NCBI GenBank assembly: GCA_004563595.2
Contig: CP042461.1
Span: forward strand, 1,140,001-1,172,000
Direction: 5' to 3'
Length of the DNA stretch: 32,000 bases
Source of the DNA: Candidatus Saccharimonadota bacterium
GTDB lineage: Bacteria > Patescibacteriota > Gracilibacteria > BD1-5 > UBA6164
Made by a program: the position numbers and the translations under genes. Below, piece by piece: positions 8,502 through 27,143 of the stretch. Below the pieces are notes generated by a model. It was not told the origin of the DNA, did not search any database, and saw only the letters and a list, made by a program, of their open reading frames with translations. How positions within the stretch are numbered: the stretch's first letter is position 1; every line of letters begins with the position of its first letter.

Positions 8502-8879
8502 TTACTTTATTTCTTTATCTATATAAATTTTCATTTCATCATCTTGAGCTTCATCTTTTTTCTCAATCTCAACTTTTTTTATTTTTTTTTCTTCTTTCTT
8601 ATTTATTACAGTTTTGTCTTTGGGAATATTTTTACTTGTATCTGTTTTACAGCTAAAATAAAAATATTTTCTTAACAACACTGTAATAAGCGCTATCAGA
8701 ATAATAACTAAAACTGCAAGTTTCATATGTACAGGATCTGAACTTCATGGAACAGCCTTTCATAATGAATTAAGTACTAATCCATATAAAAAATTTCATA
8801 GTATGATTCAAATTAATGAATATATTCCAAAAAATAATATATTTAAGAGCCCTTTTATAGCGATTGGTATATTTTTCAT
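8502..8879 (-). CDS. Small membrane protein (125 aa; alternative start 8726)
   Basis: Track ORF 8502..8726 extends upstream through TGA codons to ATG 8879. MKNIPIAIKGLLNILFFGIYSLIGIILGNFLYGLVLNSLGKAVPGSSDPVHMKLAVLVIILIALITVLLRKYF..., followed by a Lys/Glu-rich tail. Two or three predicted TM helices. Confidence 0.5.
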
Positions 8880-8945
8880 AATAATTATATTAAAAATAAA
8901 TCTACCTTATTTTAGCCTTTTTCTAACAATTGTAAAGAAGAAATC

Positions 8946-9854
8946 CTATACGTCTTTCATAGACTCTACTCATGCAGTTATCTCAGAAACTTCTCTGGTA
9001 ATAATTGCTTGCCTTGCTTTATTATATTGCAAAGTTAACTTATCTGCTATCTTTTTTGCACTATCTTTAGCATTTTTCATCGCAATCATACGAGATGAGT
9101 GCTCCGAAGCTTTTGCCTCTAATAATATATCAAAGAAAATCAAATCAAGTATCATCGGAATCATTTCATTTGCAAGCTTCTCAGGAGTAGGTTCCAAATC
9201 ATAACTATATATATTTAATTCTCCTAATTCCTTTTCTATATCATACTCATCTCATAAAATACTTGTAAGATAAGCTTTTATATCTTTTGCATCAATTGGA
9301 AGAGAAAGTTTTGCAACAGGAACTTGTTTAATGGTGTTAATATAGTGATTATAAAAAACAACTACTTTATTATACTTACCTGATTGAAACTCCTCTCTTA
9401 AGAGTTGAGATATTTCTTTTGTAAAAATAGGATCAATATTATCTGAAAAATCTACAGAAAAATCAGCAATCAGTTTATTCCCAGTTCTCGCAACAAAATT
9501 TGATGCTTTTTTTCAAACTGAAATAAATTCTAACTCTTCTCCTGTTTCTTTGATGTATGAACTTACTTTTTTCATAACATTTATATTATAACCTCAACAT
9601 AATCATTTATTTGAAGTAATAACAACAGCAAGAGTTTTATCTCATTTTCCTTCTTTAAAGAGTGGAAAATCACCAAGATGCTCCTCTACTCTTAAAAATA
9701 TTTTCAACATTTCAAATACAAAATCTCTCTTTTGCAAAGCAAGTTCTCAAGCTTTTTTCATCTTTACTGTTGAAATAAGCTCCATTGCTTTTGTGATTTT
9801 TCCTGTATTCTTTATCGAACCTATTTTACGTTTTATTTCTTTAGCATTAGCCAT
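8946..9854 (-). CDS. atpG: F-type ATP synthase subunit gamma (302 aa)
   Basis: [45 protein letters not shown]... The C-terminus ...[16 protein letters not shown] reads through the apparent TGA stop at 8970 to TAG 8946-8948. Confidence 0.9.
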
Positions 9855-12325: not shown

Positions 12326-13216
12326 CTATCCTAAAACTTTAAATGCAATAATCAGACCATATATTGCAACTACTTCAATTAATGCAACAAATAGTACCAT
12401 AAATGCCATAATTTTTCATTTTGACTCAGGTGATCTATTAATCGAATCCATAGCACCTTTTACAAGTAATCATTCTCAGATACCTGCCCCAAGACCTGTA
12501 AGACCAATTGCAAGCCCAGCTCCAATTGATGCAAAAGCTGATAAACCTTCAATAGAAAGAATTTGAAATGCTACTATAAGTGCATAGATAGCAGCTGACT
12601 CTACAAGCGCAACTCAAAGTATAGAAACAGTTAAGAAAAAGCTAATCATTCTTGGATTTTGACCCATAACTTTTAATGCTTTTTCTGATAAATATCATCT
12701 TCAAATTGCAACCCCTACACCGGCAAGACCGATAGCAAGACCAGCTCATACATGAACAATATTTTCTGTACCTTCACCTATAATTTTAAATGCGATAATC
12801 AAACCATATATTGCAGTAACCTCTACAAGAGCAACAAACAATACCATAAAGGTCATAATTTTTCATTTAATTGAAGGGTTTCTATTCATAGCTGAAAGCG
12901 CTCATGCTATCAACATACCTTCTCACCAACCGGCACCTAGACCAGTTAAACCAATTGCAAGACCAGCAGCAATAGAAGAGAATAAACCAATTCCTTCAGC
13001 TCCAAGAAGTTGAAATGCAACTACGAGTCCATATATAACAGCTGATTCTACAAGTGCTATACCAAGAATAGTAACTGTAAGGTAAAATGTAGCATCTGAA
13101 GGAGTTTTTCAAATAACTTCCATAGATCTTTTTGCTAATATTCATTGACCGATAGCTACTCAGATTCATGCCAAACCAACAGCAAGACCAGGTCCTATAT
13201 AATTTACGAAATCCAT
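12326..13216 (-). CDS. atpE: F-type ATP synthase subunit c, four c-hairpins fused in one 296-aa polypeptide
   Basis: ATG 13216 to TAG 12326-12328, 891 nt with no TAA/TAG and 14 in-frame TGA. There are four consecutive units of GxGxGxG helix, polar loop, and a helix with Glu: ...IALVESAVIYGL..., ...VALVEVTAIYGL..., ...VALVESAAIYAL..., ...VALIEVVAIYGL... Sits between atpB and atpF. Confidence 0.85.
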
Positions 13217-15868: not shown

Positions 15869-16759
15869 TTAAGATAAAATTTTGAATGCAACTATCAGTC
15901 CATAAATTGCAAGAACTTCTACAAGTGCAACAAACAGAATCATAAATGCCAAAGCAGAGTTTTTATTTGCAGGATTTCTATACATAGAGTTAATTGCTCC
16001 ACCGACAAGACAACCTTCTCATACTCATGCTCATAGAGCTGCTAATCAAATTGAAAATCATGCTCAAAGTGCTGCGGCTCCTATAATAGCTGACGTTCAA
16101 AGAATTTGAAAACCGATTACTAGCCCATATATTGCAGCCGATTCCACTAAAGCAATTCAAAGAATAGTAATAGTCAGAAAAAATGACGTTAATTCAGGAG
16201 CTCTTCACATAACAACAAGAGCCCTTTGAGCAAGTATTCCCTCCCCTATTCATACTCATAATCATGCAAGCCCAATAGCAAGACCAGCTCCAACAGCAAC
16301 ATATTCATTTATATTTTCAATACTTAAGATCTGGAATGACATAATAAGCCCATAAATGGCTGCTGATTCAACAAGGGCAAGAAAGAGAATCATAAATGTA
16401 GTAATTTTACTTTTATTATCTGGATTTAAATTTATTGCCTCAAGTGCTCATGATACCAGTATTCACTCTCATATTCATACTCCTAATCACGCTAATCATA
16501 TCCCAAGTCATACTCCTACAGCCGTCATTCATTGTAAACCTTCGGTTCACAAAATTTGAAAGGCAATAATAAGCCCATAAATGGCTACTGATTCAACTAA
16601 CGCAACTCACAGAATTGTTACCGTTAAATAAAAAGTACTCATCTTTGGGTTCTTTCCCATGATCTCCATTGCCCTAAAGGTCAATATTCCTTGCCCTATT
16701 GCAGCACCAATACATGCCAATCAAACAGCTAAACCTGCTCATAAATATGTTAAATCCAT
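15869..16759 (-). CDS. atpE: Second four-hairpin fused ATP synthase subunit c paralog (296 aa), stand-alone
   Basis: ATG 16759 to TAA 15869-15871, 891 nt with 24 in-frame TGA. MDLTYLGAGLAVGLACIGAAIGQGIL...VALVESVAIYGL...GIGEGIL...LALVESAAIYGL...GIGEGIL...IALVESAAIYGL...GVGEGCL...VALVEVLAIYGLIVAFKILS. Same length and architecture as the operon copy. Confidence 0.8.
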
Positions 16760-22575: not shown

Positions 22576-23175
22576 TTACTTATTACATCTTTTTCATAAT
22601 GATATCACTTCCTCCTTTCAAAGGAGTAATACTTTAATTTTTTCAATATTCCTTTTGAAAAAAAGTTGAGGATGAACAGGCTCACCAGAGTAAATTTTAC
22701 GAAGAAATACCTGCCTTACTCTCACCTCTTCTGGGGTTTTTCAAAAATAATAAGCTAATGTATTTATTCGTCTTTGAGAAAAAGTCAGCTTTTTTTCATT
22801 TCTTTCTCTTGCAAGCTCCTTTCCTTTTTTCACAATATCTTTTTCTTGTTCCGTTTCTTTAATAACGTCATGAAAGTAATTCAAGAGTTTTATTTGTTCG
22901 TTGATATGCAAATATGATATGAATTTATAGAGTTCTTGATCTGATCAAACAGTAATTTCAGATTCGTAATTGAAGTCTATTTGCATATCATACCTAATCG
23001 TGACACTCTTAGCTCACCAATCTTCTATTCATTTCTGTTCGTGAGATAACACTCCATCAACTACATCTACATTTGCTCTTACAGATTCTTCTATAGGTTG
23101 ATTAAAAGAATGAATAGAGTTTCATATATCATCTAAACATTCATTTTCTTTAAATTGAGACTCTAAAACCCCCAT
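22576..23175 (-). CDS. Hypothetical protein (199 aa)
   Basis: ATG 23175 to TAA 22576-22578, 600 nt open under TGA=Gly. MGVLESQFKENECLDDIGNSIHSF... I recognised no family. Confidence 0.45.
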
Positions 23176-23512: not shown

Positions 23513-23585
23513 CTGTGCAACAATTTTTAACGGAAAGTGGCCATGAAGGTATACTAAGTTATTAATTGTAAATGGAGATATACAG

Positions 23586-23807
23586 ATGAGCAATAGTTTT
23601 AATGCATGTATTACCCTAGCACAAATCACTAAAAAAGGTATTGAAAGCTGGGAAGGTTTTTACGAAGAGTATCCGGATCAACAACCTAGTAAATTAGTTA
23701 TTAAAAAACTAGGTTCTCAAGATTCAAAAGTTCAAAAATTAGCACAGCTTCAACAGCTCGCAACTGAACTCAATAATAACTCACAAAACAATCACGCAAT
23801 AGCTTAA
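23586..23807 (+). CDS. Small hypothetical protein (73 aa), TGA-free, with a Shine-Dalgarno site
   Basis: Intact in the standard-code track. GGAG lies 9 nt upstream of the ATG. TAA stop. A hairpin agccagcttcc/ggaagttggct (23818-23846) follows. Confidence 0.5.
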   Translation: MSNSFNACITLAQITKKGIESWEGFYEEYPDQQPSKLVIKKLGSQDSKVQKLAQLQQLATELNNNSQNNHAIA

Positions 23808-23984: not shown

Positions 23985-25892
23985 ATGTGAAAAATAATTT
24001 GAATCGATTTGGGTACTACAAACTCTTGTGTTGCCTTTATGGAAGGGTGAGAAGCAAAAGTAATTCCAAATGCAGAGTGAAATAGAACCACTCCATCTAT
24101 TGTAGCCCATAAAGATGGAAATATCATTGTTGGTACTCCAGCAAAAAGACAAGCTATTACAAACCCAGCTGGAACAATATTCTCAGCAAAAAGATTTATT
24201 GGGAGACAATTTGATGAAGTAAAAGATGAGATTGCTTCTGTTCCTTATGAAGTTGTAAAAGGAAAAAATGGTGAAGCACTTATTAAGTTTGATGGAAAAG
24301 ATGTAAGACCAGAAGAAGTTGGTGCTCACGTACTTATGAAAATCAAAGAAGATGCTGAAAAATTTTTAGGATCTTCAGTAACTGAAGCAGTTATCACTGT
24401 TCCAGCTTACTTTAATGATGATCAAAGACAAGCGACTATTAATGCAGGTAAGATTGCATGACTTGAAGTAAAAAGAATTGTAAACGAACCTACTGCTGCT
24501 GCTCTTTCATATGGTGCTTGAAAAGGTAAAAATGAAAAAATTGCTGTATATGATCTCGGGTGAGGTACTTTTGATATCTCTATATTAGAATTATCAGATG
24601 AAGGAACTTTTGAAGTACTTGCAACAAATGGTGATACCCACCTTGGTTGAGATGATTTTGATAAAAAAATTCTTGATTATATTATTGATGAATTCAAAAA
24701 AGAACAAGCAATTGACTTAAGAAATGATCCAATGGCTCTTCAAAGAGTAAGAGATGAAGCTGAAAAAGCAAAAAAAGAACTCTCTAGTACAACTGAATAT
24801 GATATTAACTTACCATATATCACTGTTGATTCAAGTGGTCCAAAAAATTTAATGATGACTATTACAAAAACGAAGTTTGAAGAACTTATTTCTGACTTAG
24901 TTGAAAGATCAATCGAACCATGTAAAAAAGTATTAAAAGATGCTGGATTAAATGCCAGTGACCTCGATCAAGTATTACTTGTATGAGGTTCAACAAGAGT
25001 TCCTCTTGTAATTTCAAAGGTAGAAGCATTCTTTAGTAAAAAACCAAATGTAGGTATTAATCCTGATGAAGCTGTTGCTCTATGAGCTGCAATTCAAGCA
25101 GGTATTATAGGATGAGACGTTACTGATGTATTATTACTTGATGTTACTCCTCTGACTATTGGTATTGAAACTATGGGTGGAGTAAGAACTGCTATGATTA
25201 CTAGAAATACAACTATTCCTGCAAATAAGACAGAGGTATTCTCTACTGCTGTTGATAACCAACCTGGTGTTGAAATTCATATATTACAAGGTGAAAGAGA
25301 AATGGCTGCTGATAATAAACCTCTTGGAAGATTTATGTTAGACGGTATTGCTCCTGCTCCAAGATGAGTTCCTCAAATTGAAGTTTCATTTGATATTGAT
25401 GCAAACTGAGTATTAAAAGTTACTGCAAAAGATAAAGGTACAGGAAAAGAACAACATATCACAATCCAAGGATCAACTGGTATGGATGAAGCTGAAGTAG
25501 ATAAGCTTGTAAAAGAAGCTGAAGCAAAAAAAGATGAAGATAAACAGAAAAAAGATGGTGTTGATGCAAGAAACACTGCAGACTCTACAGTCGCTCAAGC
25601 TGAAAAAATGATTACTGATAATAAAGATAAGATTGACGAGGCTGACAAAAAATCAATTGAAGAAAAAGTTGCTGCAGTAAAAGAAGTTCTTGGAAAATCA
25701 GATACTTCAAAAGAAGACTTTGAAGCTCCAACAAAAGAACTGAATGATACTATGATGCAAGTAGGACAAAAACTTTATTCTCAACCGAGAGCTGAATGAG
25801 CACCAACAGGATGAGAAGAAACAAAAGCTGATGACTGAGTAGTTGATGCTGAAGTGGAAAGTGATGATGAGAAAGGAAGTACAAGGGTCTAA
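23985..25892 (+). CDS. dnaK: Molecular chaperone DnaK (Hsp70, 635 aa)
   Basis: [38 protein letters not shown]..., DLGGGTFD, VLLVGGSTRVP. Track ORFs 24732.., 25173.. and 25482.. are all in one frame. TAA at 25890-25892. Confidence 0.97.
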
Positions 25893-25907
25893 AGTATATA
25901 GCTAAGA

Positions 25908-25942
25908 TAAAAAGCTTCGTGAATATTCACGAAGCTTTTTTA
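25908..25942. terminator. Intrinsic terminator after dnaK
   Basis: Stem aagcttcgtg (25912-25921) pairs with cacgaagctt (25928-25937), loop aatatt, followed by T5. An A-run upstream makes it potentially bidirectional. Confidence 0.8.
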
Positions 25943-25967
25943 ATACATTACCTTTTACCCCCCCTTT

Positions 25968-26459
25968 TCATAATTTTTTCCAGTCTTTATCCCCTGTGCA
26001 ATAATGGATATCCTGCTTCATGTACCAATGCGAGCTCTCAATAAGAAAAGAAATTACATGGTTTTTAGCTTCTAATGTTAAATCACCCTTATAAGGCTTA
26101 CAAACAAAACTTACTAAATTAAGGTTCTTAATATTATGACCAAATGTACAATCAGTAGCATTATATGCATCAACAGAAGGAACTAAGCTATCGATTATGG
26201 TAACCCTTGGGATATTTTGAAAACCTTCAATCTTTTTATACAAACTCTCAGACTTTTCTTCTAAAGAAAATATAATACATGGAATACTACCTATCAAGTA
26301 GCCTTCTATTGAGTTAATATTATTTTCTTTATTTATAAATATAACTCGGATATCTGGCTCTCCTTGAAAGTCTTTTTGATACTCATTATTTGTACTACAT
26401 CTCAATGCAAGATATATGTCTTGCGATAAACCTCCATCAATAAAGTCTATTTTTATCAT
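25968..26459 (-). CDS. Hypothetical protein (163 aa in the standard code; 185 aa if the terminal TGA is read as Gly, ending at TAG 25902)
   Basis: Intact ORF with no internal TGA despite 9 Gly codons. AGAGGA Shine-Dalgarno 8 nt upstream of the ATG. A TTGACT-N16-TATTAT promoter lies at 26518-26491. Confidence 0.55.
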   Translation of the reverse strand: MIKIDFIDGGLSQDIYLALRCSTNNEYQKDFQGEPDIRVIFINKENNINSIEGYLIGSIPCIIFSLEEKSESLYKKIEGFQNIPRVTIIDSLVPSVDAYNATDCTFGHNIKNLNLVSFVCKPYKGDLTLEAKNHVISFLIESSHWYMKQDIHYCTGDKDWKKL

Positions 26460-26530
26460 TTTTATTTCCTCTTTGTAAAAGACTTTTTTTATAATACTTC
26501 GTTAAGATAAATAGTCAAATAAAATATTTT

Positions 26531-26558
26531 TTGACTTCTGAGCTAAACATACTATAAT
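26531..26558 (+). promoter_or_regulatory. Consensus sigma-70 promoter with no ORF downstream
   Basis: TTGACT (26531-26536), 16-nt spacer, TATAAT (26553-26558). It lies back-to-back, 12 bp apart, with the minus-strand promoter of the 163-aa ORF. Confidence 0.55.
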
Positions 26559-26564
26559 CCTGCA

Positions 26565-26747
26565 TGAGATAAGTTATTTTTTTCGATAATCAGACAATTA
26601 GTAGCTTTCGTAGTTGATTTGAAGGTGCATACCCAAGTAATTATTGGGCAGCTAAATTCAGATTGCATGATTGCTCCACCTAGTCACTACGATTTAAAAA
26701 TAACTTTTCTTGAAAATAAAAGACGTCCCCAGGGACGTCTTTTTCGT
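26565..26747 (+). ncRNA. Candidate ~180-nt small RNA of unknown class
   Basis: Bracketed by the consensus promoter and a GC-rich terminator. No ORF longer than 3 codons starts at its 5' end. An 11-bp closing stem aagttattttt (26571-26581) pairs with aaaaataactt (26696-26706). Inner stems are cgtagt/actacg, ggtg/cacc and cccaa/ttggg. Confidence 0.4.
26717..26747. terminator. GC-rich bidirectional intrinsic terminator
   Basis: aaaagacgtcc-ccag-ggacgtcttttt. It serves the plus-strand sRNA candidate and the minus-strand 123-aa ORF that ends at 26772. Confidence 0.75.
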
Positions 26748-26771
26748 ATATTATAAAAACGATAAGTTAGA

Positions 26772-27143
26772 TTAATCTAACTTATCGTTTTGTATTTTTT
26801 CCTCCTCACATTTTGAACACTTCTGAGGAGCTCCCTTGATTATATCCATCATTGTATTTACAAGAACCTGTTTATTAATAATTCTCTTCATGTACCACGG
26901 GTTCTTTTTGGCAAAAGTATCTATATTTTTTACTATTTGCTCTTTATGCAACTTCAAAGATTCTTCATCTCTCTCAGTTGGACAATAATTCAACGAATGA
27001 TGACACTGTACAAGTACTCCCCATTCGATGAGACCTTGTATACCTACACTATATGGTAAAAGTTTTGGATTATGAGCTTCTCGCATAATACACCTCCTAT
27101 TTTTTGCTGGATAATACTCGAGAACTCTCATAATACCAAACAA
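26772..27143 (-). CDS. Hypothetical Cys/His-rich protein (123 aa from TTG 27143, or 119 aa from ATG 27131), TGA-free
   Basis: Intact in the standard-code track. ...CHHSLNYCPTERDE...CSKCEEE suggests metal binding. TAA stop followed by the terminator. Confidence 0.5.
   Translation of the reverse strand: MFGIMRVLEYYPAKNRRCIMREAHNPKLLPYSVGIQGLIEWGVLVQCHHSLNYCPTERDEESLKLHKEQIVKNIDTFAKKNPWYMKRIINKQVLVNTMMDIIKGAPQKCSKCEEEKIQNDKLD

What the first reader, a model, noticed from the sequence alone, without database searches (positions are those of the whole stretch)
25902..27143. TGA-free two-gene island between dnaK and the glutaredoxin cluster; one ORF ends on a UGA the host should read through
The 163-aa and 123-aa minus-strand ORFs are the only long ORFs that are intact in the standard-code track. 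They contain about 14 Gly codons and not one TGA. By my hand counts, roughly a quarter or more of Gly codons in neighbouring genes are TGA. The 163-aa ORF has a strong AGAGGA SD. It terminates with TGA at 25968-25970, placed exactly before the dnaK terminator. In a UGA=Gly host, that codon would be read through for 22 more codons (GKGGVKGNVLKKLREYSRSFLS) across the terminator hairpin to TAG 25902. This pattern fits DNA recently acquired from a standard-code source (a phage, plasmid or other bacterium). Alternatively, the genes are kept deliberately code-neutral. Neither protein resembles a family I recognise. The 123-aa protein has CHH...C and CxxC motifs. A mobile, code-neutral cassette next to an sRNA-like unit could be a defence or addiction module.
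Basis: partly seen in the sequence, partly recalled or inferred. Interest (0 to 1): 0.65.

Follow-up and report, generated by a model that had tools for sequence, protein, structure and literature searches.

The report
Foreign-style genes flanking dnaK in Gracilibacterium
In a bacterium that reads UGA as glycine and does not use Shine-Dalgarno sites, two (in fact three) small orphan genes next to dnaK avoid UGA and carry Shine-Dalgarno sites, so they most likely evolved under the standard code and arrived by gene transfer; what they do is unknown.

Summary
The window is a code-25 (UGA=Gly) Gracilibacterium. All 31 other genes have at least 2 in-frame TGA, and TGA makes up 43% of Gly codons. 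ORF1 (25968-26459, minus strand) and ORF2 (true start probably ATG 27086, 104 aa) have 13 GGN codons and no internal TGA. ORF1 ends on a TGA that code 25 reads through for 22 codons, across the dnaK/ORF1 terminator, to TAG 25902.

New independent evidence:
- None of the 31 host genes has a Shine-Dalgarno (SD) site. ORF2 has AGGAGGTG, ORF1 has GAGGA, and a third TGA-free orphan on the other side of dnaK (orf73, 23586-23807) has GGAGA.
- All three have low codon adaptation.
- None of the three has a match near dnaK in about 40 related loci that keep the backbone synteny.
- In those relatives, SD-led starts occur almost only on TGA-free or TGA-poor genes (8/22 vs 7/367, P=1e-7). Several of those genes carry their only TGAs at the 3' end. 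One is an NhaB gene 70-73% identical to 498-503-aa gammaproteobacterial NhaB, with its first TGA at codon 500.

Verdict: these are horizontally acquired, standard-code-type genes. "Recent" acquisition is unproven. A defence or addiction role has no support. Both proteins are strict orphans. About 7% of ORFs of at least 100 aa in relatives are TGA-free, so the island belongs to a recurrent class.

The parts
25971..26459 (-). ORF1 core coding sequence (163 codons, no in-frame TGA, 9 GGN Gly codons); strict orphan
   Evidence: Only self-hits among 5.8e9 clustered proteins and among 1.84e9 representatives by full phmmer. No Pfam, NCBIfam or PADLOC hit.
25968..25970 (-). TGA at the end of ORF1: a stop under the standard code, Gly under the host's code 25; read as a relic stop codon
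   Evidence: Analogous 3'-terminal TGAs occur in SD-led genes of relatives. The NhaB case matches the length of its homologues.
25902..25967 (-). 22-codon read-through extension (including the UGA-encoded Gly at 25968-25970, listed as its own part; the remaining 21 sense codons are 25905-25967), GKGGVKGNVLKKLREYSRSFLS, ending at TAG 25902-25904; it crosses the terminator
   Evidence: The public gene call P0001 is the 185-aa form.
25909..25940 (.). Perfect 16+16-nt palindrome: a two-way intrinsic terminator shared by dnaK (+) and ORF1 (-). On the minus strand the U-tract runs into the TAG.
   Evidence: I3; z -4.3 and -5.3
26467..26472 (-). Shine-Dalgarno-like AGAGGA, 7 nt before the ORF1 ATG
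26491..26518 (-). Promoter-like TTGACT-16-TATTAT for ORF1, back to back with the plus-strand promoter
   Evidence: Promoter-like matches are not above shuffle expectation in this AT-rich DNA.
26531..26750 (+). Promoter-like TTGACT-16-TATAAT (26531-26558) followed by a structured RNA candidate of about 185 nt. It has a closing stem 26567-26581/26696-26710 and ends at hairpin 26718-26743.
   Evidence: MFE -51.7, z -5.66. No Rfam family. No match in relatives.
26756..26791 (.). Perfect 18+18-nt palindrome covering the last codons and the TAA of ORF2: the terminator of ORF2
   Evidence: z -8.8 together with the 26718-26743 hairpin
26772..27086 (-). ORF2 coding sequence (104 aa from ATG 27086; TAA stop; no TGA; 4 GGN). 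Predicted helical, with CHHx4C...CxxC; orphan.
27091..27098 (-). 8-nt Shine-Dalgarno AGGAGGTG, 4 nt before the ORF2 ATG
23574..23807 (+). orf73: a third TGA-free orphan small gene (73 aa, 3 GGT) with GGAGA 7 nt before ATG 23586 and its own terminator, on the other flank of dnaK. It belongs to the same class as ORF1 and ORF2.
   Evidence: It has no match in relatives.

Best explanation
ORF1 and ORF2, together with orf73 on the other side of dnaK, are foreign-type genes. They evolved where UGA is a stop codon and where translation starts on Shine-Dalgarno sites. They were then inserted by horizontal transfer into the variable flanks of dnaK in a code-25, SD-independent Gracilibacterium. The immediate source is unknown; it was probably an AT-rich standard-code replicon such as a phage, a plasmid or another bacterium.

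Consequences in this host (inferred, not shown):
- ORF2 is made as a 104-aa helical protein with four Cys and two His.
- The old UGA stop of ORF1 is decoded as Gly. The protein gains 22 residues encoded across the shared dnaK/ORF1 terminator.
- The next stop (UAG) overlaps the end of the terminator U-tract. Many terminated ORF1 transcripts should therefore lack an in-frame stop and be handled by ribosome rescue.

The cellular role of the proteins is unknown. I rate them as accessory cargo rather than a defence or addiction system.
For: Shown:
1. There are 0 TGA in 13 Gly codons, against 43% TGA in the 31 host genes, each of which has at least 2 TGA. P is 0.002 to 4.5e-4 with overdispersion allowed.
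2. Among host genes the TGA share falls with codon adaptation (rho -0.46). These ORFs have the lowest and second-lowest adaptation, and the trend predicts a TGA share near 0.7 for them.
3. SD sites: 0/31 host genes have one. A whole-window scan finds only three real gene starts that are SD-led, namely ORF1, ORF2 and orf73.
4. Relatives with DnaK 84-92% identical keep the backbone ...SPOUT-aaRS-dnaK...rhodanese-M3 peptidase-UDG. In L015 and L018 dnaK abuts rhodanese. None of the relatives has any match to ORF1, ORF2 or orf73.
5. The class recurs in relatives. A strong SD precedes 8/22 TGA-free ORFs against 7/367 TGA-containing ORFs (Fisher P 1.3e-7). Four of the 7 are TGA-poor, and in the other three the motif lies 30-40 codons inside the ORF.
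6. Relic TGA stops in relatives. L012 NhaB has its first TGA at codon 500, and its 70-73% identical gammaproteobacterial homologues are 498-503 aa long. L002 13429-14142, L036 51-401 and L032 6249-6896 carry their only TGAs at the 3' end.
7. TGA-free or TGA-poor genes have raised GC3 relative to their own locus (P 6e-6).

Literature: code-11-compatible phages without in-frame TGA are predicted to infect Gracilibacteria (PMC10746230). Read-through and rescue at a reassigned stop codon in transferred genes has been shown in recoded E. coli (PMC6207430).
Against: - No donor or homologue of ORF1, ORF2 or orf73 exists in any collection searched.
- There are no mobility genes, tRNA or flanking repeats.
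- GC (0.30-0.34) and GC3 (0.25-0.30) are close to the host's, so the transfer is not demonstrably recent.
- The NhaB analogue has host-level GC3 (0.18, against 0.42 in its closest homologue) but still no TGA. Simple 'recent arrival' does not explain that.
- The relatives sampled are from different genera or families (M3 peptidase 52-70% identical), so absence from them dates the insertion only loosely.
- Expression, the extension and the non-stop mRNA are inferences.
Confidence: 0.65

Rival explanations
1. Maintained code-neutrality. These genes belong to a gene pool that is kept free of TGA and SD-led by selection. This could be because they ride on elements that replicate in both code-25 Gracilibacteria and standard-code bacteria. 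It could also be because TGA decoding is disfavoured for this class of genes. Under this reading they are long-term residents, not recent arrivals.
For: - L012 NhaB has GC3 0.18 (host level), against 0.42 in its nearest standard-code homologue. Yet it has 11 GGA, 14 GGT, 1 GGG and 0 TGA in 499 codons.
- CDP-alcohol phosphatidyltransferase genes that are 33% identical (L020, L047, plus L002) are all TGA-free. Over the same divergence, dnaK switched TGA/GGN at 13 of 42 conserved Gly sites.
- The window ORFs are nearly host-like in GC3.
- Liu et al. argue that code-11-compatible Gracilibacteria phages retain that state for host range (PMC10746230).
Against: - No near-identical copies of any of these genes were found in standard-code genomes; the best NhaB hit is 73%.
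- There are no mobile-element hallmarks around the window island.
- An AT-rich standard-code donor explains the same data without invoking selection.
- ORF1's TGA has no nearby back-up stop, unlike the phage genes described in PMC10746230.
Confidence: 0.17
2. Chance. These are small, Gly-poor genes that simply happen to lack TGA, and native orphan genes with nothing foreign about them.
For: - About 7% of ORFs of at least 100 aa in related loci are TGA-free (19/265).
- ORF2 alone has only 4 Gly codons (P 0.11).
- The genome has about 1,243 genes, so some TGA-free small genes are expected (PMC6851277).
Against: - The joint P is 0.002 to 4.5e-4.
- Chance does not explain why exactly these genes are the only SD-led ones among 34.
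- It does not explain the clade-wide SD/TGA-free association (P 1.3e-7).
- It does not explain the 3'-terminal relic TGAs.
- The native-looking orphan hyp199 next door has 7 TGA and no SD.
Confidence: 0.07
3. Remnant of a phage packaging module. ORF2 would be a terminase-large-subunit fragment and ORF1 a portal fragment, in the canonical terL-then-portal order.
For: - Weak PHROG hits: ORF1 to phrog_64 portal (E 1.4e-3), and ORF2 to phrog_4145 terminase large subunit (E 0.018).
- tblastn matches ORF2 residues 32-68 to TerL of Pseudomonas phages (E 0.1), around residues 101-139 of a 642-aa TerL.
- Ten reversed or shuffled controls gave a best E of 0.09.
Against: - All hits are below any safe threshold and cover short stretches.
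- The ORFs are a fraction of terminase or portal length, and each has its own SD, promoter-like site and terminator.
- There is no IMG/VR or GenBank phage relative.
- No fold match was found.
Confidence: 0.06
4. A toxin-antitoxin or anti-phage defence cassette.
For: There are two small adjacent same-strand genes beside an RNA-like unit, in a variable region.
Against: - No PADLOC, Pfam or NCBIfam hit.
- The genes are 312 bp apart, with two terminators and a separate promoter-like site between them, so they are not co-transcribed.
- No relatives exist with which to test co-occurrence.
Confidence: 0.03

Closest known systems
Code-11-compatible phages predicted to infect Gracilibacteria/Absconditabacteria (Liu et al. 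2023, mBio, PMC10746230)
   Same: This is DNA associated with code-25 hosts whose genes lack in-frame TGA and sometimes end on TGA, so it can be translated under either code.
   Different: - Those are phage genomes larger than 20 kb with hallmark genes, linked to hosts by CRISPR spacers, and with back-up stops close behind TGA.
- Here there are three isolated chromosomal orphan genes without phage hallmarks, and 22 codons separate the TGA from the next stop.
- That paper reported integrated prophages as TGA-rich.
- The SD contrast found here is not part of their description.
Horizontally acquired gene islets recognised by atypical codon usage, and their amelioration (established concept; own knowledge)
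   Same: - The content is lineage-specific, sits between conserved backbone genes, and has the poorest codon adaptation in the region.
- It carries signals of the donor's expression system.
   Different: - The markers are categorical (a reassigned codon and the mode of initiation) rather than compositional.
- GC content is not atypical.
- There is no integrase, tRNA or direct repeats.
Read-through and ribosome rescue at a reassigned or unassigned stop codon in transferred genes of recoded E. coli (Ma et al. 2018, eLife, PMC6207430)
   Same: A gene ending on the stop codon that the host no longer reads as stop is extended at its C terminus, or rescued.
   Different: That system is engineered (UAG, RF1 deletion) and the effect was measured. 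Here it is natural (UGA=Gly) and only inferred from sequence.
Type II toxin-antitoxin modules
   Same: Two small adjacent genes on one strand in an accessory region.
   Different: There is no operon structure, no homology to any toxin or antitoxin family, and no DNA-binding antitoxin domain detected.

Membership tests
Horizontally acquired gene islet | Absent from related genomes that keep the flanking backbone | tested here: met
   Backbone synteny is conserved in L011-L051. In L015 and L018 dnaK abuts rhodanese. ORF1, ORF2 and orf73 have no code-25 tblastn match at E<=0.9. The relatives are only genus- or family-level.
Horizontally acquired gene islet | Sequence signals that differ from the host's genes | tested here: met
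   No TGA; SD present against 0/31 host genes; lowest codon adaptation in the window. GC content is not atypical.
Horizontally acquired gene islet | Identifiable donor or homologues elsewhere | tested here: not met
   Only self-hits. Nothing in phages, IMG/VR or metagenome contigs.
Horizontally acquired gene islet | Mobility machinery or insertion scars (integrase, tRNA, direct repeats) | tested here: not met
   No tRNA. No flanking direct repeats beyond chance-level short matches. No integrase or transposase ORF in the interval.
Code-11-compatible phage or prophage (PMC10746230) | Genes free of in-frame TGA | tested here: met
Code-11-compatible phage or prophage (PMC10746230) | Phage hallmark genes (portal, terminase, tail, integrase) | tested here: inconclusive
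   Only sub-threshold PHROG hits to portal and terminase (E 1.4e-3 and 0.018). Shuffled and reversed controls gave a best E of 0.09. There are no neighbouring phage genes.
Code-11-compatible phage or prophage (PMC10746230) | Back-up stop codon close behind a terminal TGA | tested here: not met
   The next in-frame stop is 22 codons downstream.
Code-11-compatible phage or prophage (PMC10746230) | CRISPR spacer link to host | not tested
   The source genome is reported to lack CRISPR-Cas (PMC6851277). No spacer database is available here.
Type II toxin-antitoxin / addiction module | Two genes co-transcribed as an operon with a short or overlapping junction | tested here: not met
   There is a 312-bp gap with two strong hairpin terminators, and a separate promoter-like site and SD for ORF1.
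Type II toxin-antitoxin / addiction module | Homology to a known toxin or antitoxin family | tested here: not met
   Pfam, NCBIfam and PADLOC: none.
Known anti-phage defence systems (PADLOC-DB 2.0) | Match to a defence-protein model | tested here: not met
   0 families at E<=10.
Known RNA family (for the unit between the ORFs) | Match to an Rfam covariance model | tested here: not met
   No match at gathering score. Only terminator-driven sub-threshold matches at E<=10.

The most novel reading that the evidence does not exclude
SD-led, TGA-free genes form a standing 'bilingual' gene pool in code-25 Gracilibacteria. They would be kept translatable under the standard code and by SD-dependent ribosomes because they shuttle on elements that also replicate in the standard-code bacteria these episymbionts live on or prey on, or are even expressed there. 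The window island would be one such cargo. Under this reading, the GC3-ameliorated but TGA-free state of genes such as the L012 NhaB reflects selection, not recency.
Probability: 0.15. Interest if true: 0.8.

Novelty: new member of a known kind. Interest (0 to 1): 0.5.

Why it matters
Whether a changed genetic code isolates a lineage from gene flow is an old question. These genes are natural cases of transfer across a code boundary, and the crossing has left readable marks: no reassigned codon, a relic UGA stop that is now read through, and Shine-Dalgarno sites in a genome that does not use them. The paired SD and TGA-free signature is a simple, categorical way to list foreign genes in code-25 genomes. 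It could be used to date them and to ask whether UGA is gained neutrally or avoided. It also warns annotators that the C-terminal tails of such genes (ORF1's 22 residues, NhaB's 38) are probably artefacts of the code change, not functional domains.

Tried and rejected
Function by homology gave nothing usable:
- Pfam, NCBIfam and PADLOC returned no hits.
- PHROGs returned only sub-threshold hits, which I checked against reversed and shuffled controls.
- PDB sequence search found nothing.
- The AlphaFold single-sequence models were poor (pLDDT 36 and 59).
- Foldseek of the ORF2 model found no match.

Homologues were not found in the word-indexed 5.8e9-protein search, exhaustive phmmer for ORF1, GenBank phages by tblastn, IMG/VR or JGI metagenomes.

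Other attempts:
- Synteny through the M3 peptidase in GTDB genomes was uninformative, because the downstream order is not kept there. DnaK in metagenomes worked.
- ORF1 and ORF2 are not paralogues: BLASTP E is 0.19, and they share only a 12-nt WYMK word.
- Flanking repeats or att sites: none convincing.
- Promoter strength as a foreign signal was rejected, because promoter-like matches are at shuffle level across the window.
- A dnaK-downstream-specific hot spot for TGA-free genes was not supported: 8/114 upstream against 11/151 downstream.
- High expression as the cause of TGA avoidance was rejected, because codon adaptation is the lowest in the window.
Full report
**What the window is.** Long genes are intact only if TAA and TAG are the stops and TGA is a sense codon. 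The glutaredoxin reads ...WPTYPQLYVKGELMGGVD only with TGA=Gly. GC is about 30%. The same DNA, 100% identical over 16 kb, lies on an ENA contig of 412 kb. ORF2's product is recorded on a 1,343,103-bp contig. That size, and the GC content, match the closed Gracilibacteria (BD1-5) genome of Sieber et al. 2019: 1.343 Mb, 28.87% GC, code 25, no prfB (PMC6851277).

**The observation.** It holds.
- ORF1 is 25968..26459 (-), 163 aa, and ends in TGA. Under code 25 it continues for 22 codons (GKGGVKGNVLKKLREYSRSFLS) to TAG 25902. The public gene call is this 185-aa form.
- ORF2 is 26772..27143 (-). The convincing start is ATG 27086, 4 nt after AGGAGGTG, which gives 104 aa.
- The 31 other genes of the window carry 301 TGA and 391 GGN, so TGA/Gly is 0.435, and each gene has at least 2 TGA. 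ORF1 plus ORF2 have 13 GGN and no internal TGA.
- With between-gene overdispersion allowed, P(0 TGA) is 0.019 for ORF1 and 0.107 for ORF2. The joint value is 0.002, or 4.5e-4 on a per-codon model.
- Among host genes the TGA share falls as codon adaptation rises (Spearman -0.46). ORF1 and ORF2 have the second-lowest and lowest adaptation in the window, where the host trend predicts a TGA share near 0.7. High expression therefore cannot explain the absence of TGA.

**Anatomy (minus strand, 5' to 3').**
1. The grx stop.
2. SD AGGAGGTG (27098-27091).
3. ORF2 (27086-26772). Its last codons and TAA lie in a perfect 18+18-nt hairpin (26756-26791).
4. A second hairpin (26718-26743).
5. About 200 nt that, on the plus strand, carry a TTGACT-16-TATAAT site (26531-26558) and a well-folding RNA candidate of about 185 nt (z -5.7) ending at the 26718-26743 hairpin.
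6. A back-to-back TTGACT-16-TATTAT site (26518-26491).
7. AGAGGA (26472-26467).
8. ORF1 (26459-25971) and its TGA (25970-25968).
9. A perfect 16+16-nt hairpin (25909-25940) shared with the convergent dnaK.
10. TAG 25904-25902, with dnaK's own stop at 25892.

The RNA candidate matches no Rfam family.

**A second, independent signal.** None of the 31 host genes has a Shine-Dalgarno motif at a proper distance; their leaders are simply A/T-rich. A scan of the whole window for SD-like pentamers 4-10 nt before a start codon finds only three that sit at real gene starts. These are ORF2, ORF1 and a 73-aa ORF on the other flank of dnaK (orf73, 23586-23807, plus strand; GGAGA-7-ATG). orf73 is also TGA-free, poorly codon-adapted and an orphan. 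The other hits are internal to genes or lie in shadow frames. The neighbouring orphan hyp199 (22576-23175) has 7 TGA and no SD, so being lineage-specific is not sufficient for this signature.

**Relatives.** A DnaK-based scan of metagenome contigs returned about 40 Gracilibacteria loci with DnaK 84-92% identical.
- They keep the backbone ATP synthase ... sigma-SPOUT-aaRS-[variable]-dnaK-[variable]-rhodanese-[variable]-M3 peptidase-UDG. In L015 and L018 rhodanese follows dnaK directly.
- ORF1, ORF2, orf73, hyp199, grx and bolA have no code-25 tblastn match in any of these loci. No part of the island's DNA, including the RNA candidate, is conserved there.
- The dnaK flanks are therefore variable in the whole group, and the window's content is lineage-specific.

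**The class recurs.** In the related loci, about 7% of ORFs of at least 100 aa are TGA-free (19/265), with no difference between the two sides of dnaK.
- A strong SD (GGAGG or AGGAG) precedes 8 of 22 TGA-free ORFs but only 7 of 367 TGA-containing ORFs (Fisher P 1.3e-7). Of those seven, four have only 1-2 TGA. In the other three the motif lies 30-40 codons inside the ORF.
- The TGA-free set includes recognisable accessory genes: an NhaB antiporter, CDP-alcohol phosphatidyltransferases and a hemerythrin-like protein. It also includes small signal-peptide proteins and orphans.
- TGA-free or TGA-poor genes have higher GC3 than their own locus (P 6e-6).
- Several SD-led genes have their only TGAs at the extreme 3' end: L012 NhaB (codons 500 and 536 of 538), L002 13429-14142 (223 and 231 of 237), L036 51-401 (102 of 116) and L032 6249-6896 (162 and 203 of 215).
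- For NhaB the reading is direct. The Pfam match ends at residue 500. The closest homologues, 70-73% identical and from marine Oceanospirillales such as Marinobacterium, Neptunomonas and Amphritea, are 498-503 aa long. The first TGA is therefore the ancestral stop, now read through for 38 codons. ORF1's terminal TGA followed by a 22-codon tail is the same pattern.

**Explanation.** The simplest account is that ORF1, ORF2 and orf73 evolved under the standard code with SD-dependent initiation and were acquired horizontally.

What follows in this host is inference.
- If the 16S rRNA keeps its anti-SD, these genes may initiate well.
- ORF1's UGA is decoded by the Gly tRNA, because no RF2 is present (PMC6851277), and this adds 22 residues.
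- On the minus strand the hairpin is followed by UUUUAUCUUAG, so the in-frame UAG lies about 9-11 nt after the stem, where intrinsic termination normally releases the transcript. Many ORF1 messages would therefore lack a stop codon and go to ribosome rescue, as was measured for reassigned stops in recoded E. coli (PMC6207430).

**Function.** Function remains open. Both proteins are strict orphans, with no family, defence-model or structure match. ORF2 is predicted to be helical, with CHHx4C...CxxC as a possible metal site. ORF1's model is unusable.

**What does not fit neatly.** 'Recent' is not shown. The window ORFs have GC3 of 0.25-0.30 against a host value of 0.19+/-0.05. The NhaB analogue has GC3 0.18, against 0.42 in its closest standard-code homologue. 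It nevertheless has 26 GGN (11 of them GGA) and no TGA before the old stop. Over a divergence at which dnaK switched TGA/GGN at 13 of 42 conserved Gly sites, the phosphatidyltransferase genes stayed TGA-free. There are two possible reasons. Either the immediate donors are AT-rich standard-code replicons, such as the code-11-compatible phages that Liu et al. predict for Gracilibacteria (PMC10746230). Or TGA is selected against in this class. I cannot separate these, and I give the second reading about 0.15-0.2.

**Rivals.**
- Chance is disfavoured by the SD coincidence and the clade-wide association.
- A phage packaging remnant rests only on sub-threshold hits.
- A toxin-antitoxin or defence cassette has no support and the wrong architecture.

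**Novelty.** Horizontal acquisition recognised by codon usage is a known kind, and TGA-free phage genomes for these hosts have been described (PMC10746230). In the searchable literature I found no description of chromosomal SD-led, TGA-free genes with relic TGA stops in Gracilibacteria. I file the island as a new member of a known kind. The paired signature and the amelioration puzzle are the parts worth following up.

Noticed in passing
window 26531-26750 (+): Structured RNA candidate between the two ORFs. It has a near-consensus promoter-like site (TTGACT-16-TATAAT), a closing stem 26567-26581/26696-26710 and a terminator 26718-26743. MFE is -51.7 kcal/mol, z -5.66. It matches no Rfam family and is not conserved in relatives.
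   Followed up: partly
window 23574-23807 (+): orf73 is a third TGA-free orphan small gene with an SD-like site, on the upstream flank of dnaK, with its own hairpin terminator. Its only family hit is a weak, sub-threshold DUF4332 match.
   Followed up: partly
whole window (31 host genes): No host gene has a Shine-Dalgarno motif; the leaders are A/T-rich. This Gracilibacterium appears to initiate translation without SD pairing. The 16S 3' end is not in the window, so I could not check the anti-SD.
   Followed up: partly
L012 3602-5218 (-); compare L092 4001-5503: The NhaB gene in a related Gracilibacterium was acquired from a gammaproteobacterial-type source (70-73% identity). Its ancestral TGA stop at codon 500 is read through for 38 codons. 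Its GC3 is fully host-like (0.18, against 0.42 in the homologue), yet it has 0 TGA among 26 Gly codons. This is an unexplained mismatch between two measures of residence time.
   Followed up: partly
window, all host genes: The TGA share of Gly codons falls with codon adaptation (Spearman -0.46, P 0.0085): atpA, atpD and dnaK are at 20-28%, poorly adapted genes at 60-90%. In relative L050, dnaK has only 2 TGA in 57 Gly codons. TGA looks like a non-preferred Gly codon.
   Followed up: partly
window 12326-13216 (-) and 15869-16759 (-): There are two 296-aa ATP-synthase c-subunit genes. Each aligns to relatives at several offsets about 222 nt apart, which suggests fused multi-hairpin c subunits present as two paralogues, one outside the atp operon.
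   Followed up: no
window 26016-26027 and 26886-26897: An identical 12-nt word, TGGTACATGAAG (encoding W-Y-M-K), occurs in both ORF1 and ORF2. The proteins are otherwise not detectably similar (BLASTP E 0.19).
   Followed up: yes
L011-L051, interval between dnaK and M3 peptidase: This interval is highly variable among related Gracilibacteria. It ranges from 78 bp (dnaK abutting rhodanese) to more than 6 kb, and native TGA-rich genes are interleaved with TGA-free ones. grx and bolA of the window are absent from it in every relative sampled.
   Followed up: partly
window 8803-9204 (+): A 133-aa TGA-free ORF lies antisense to the atpG region. It has no SD and overlaps real genes, so it is most likely a shadow ORF.
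   Followed up: no
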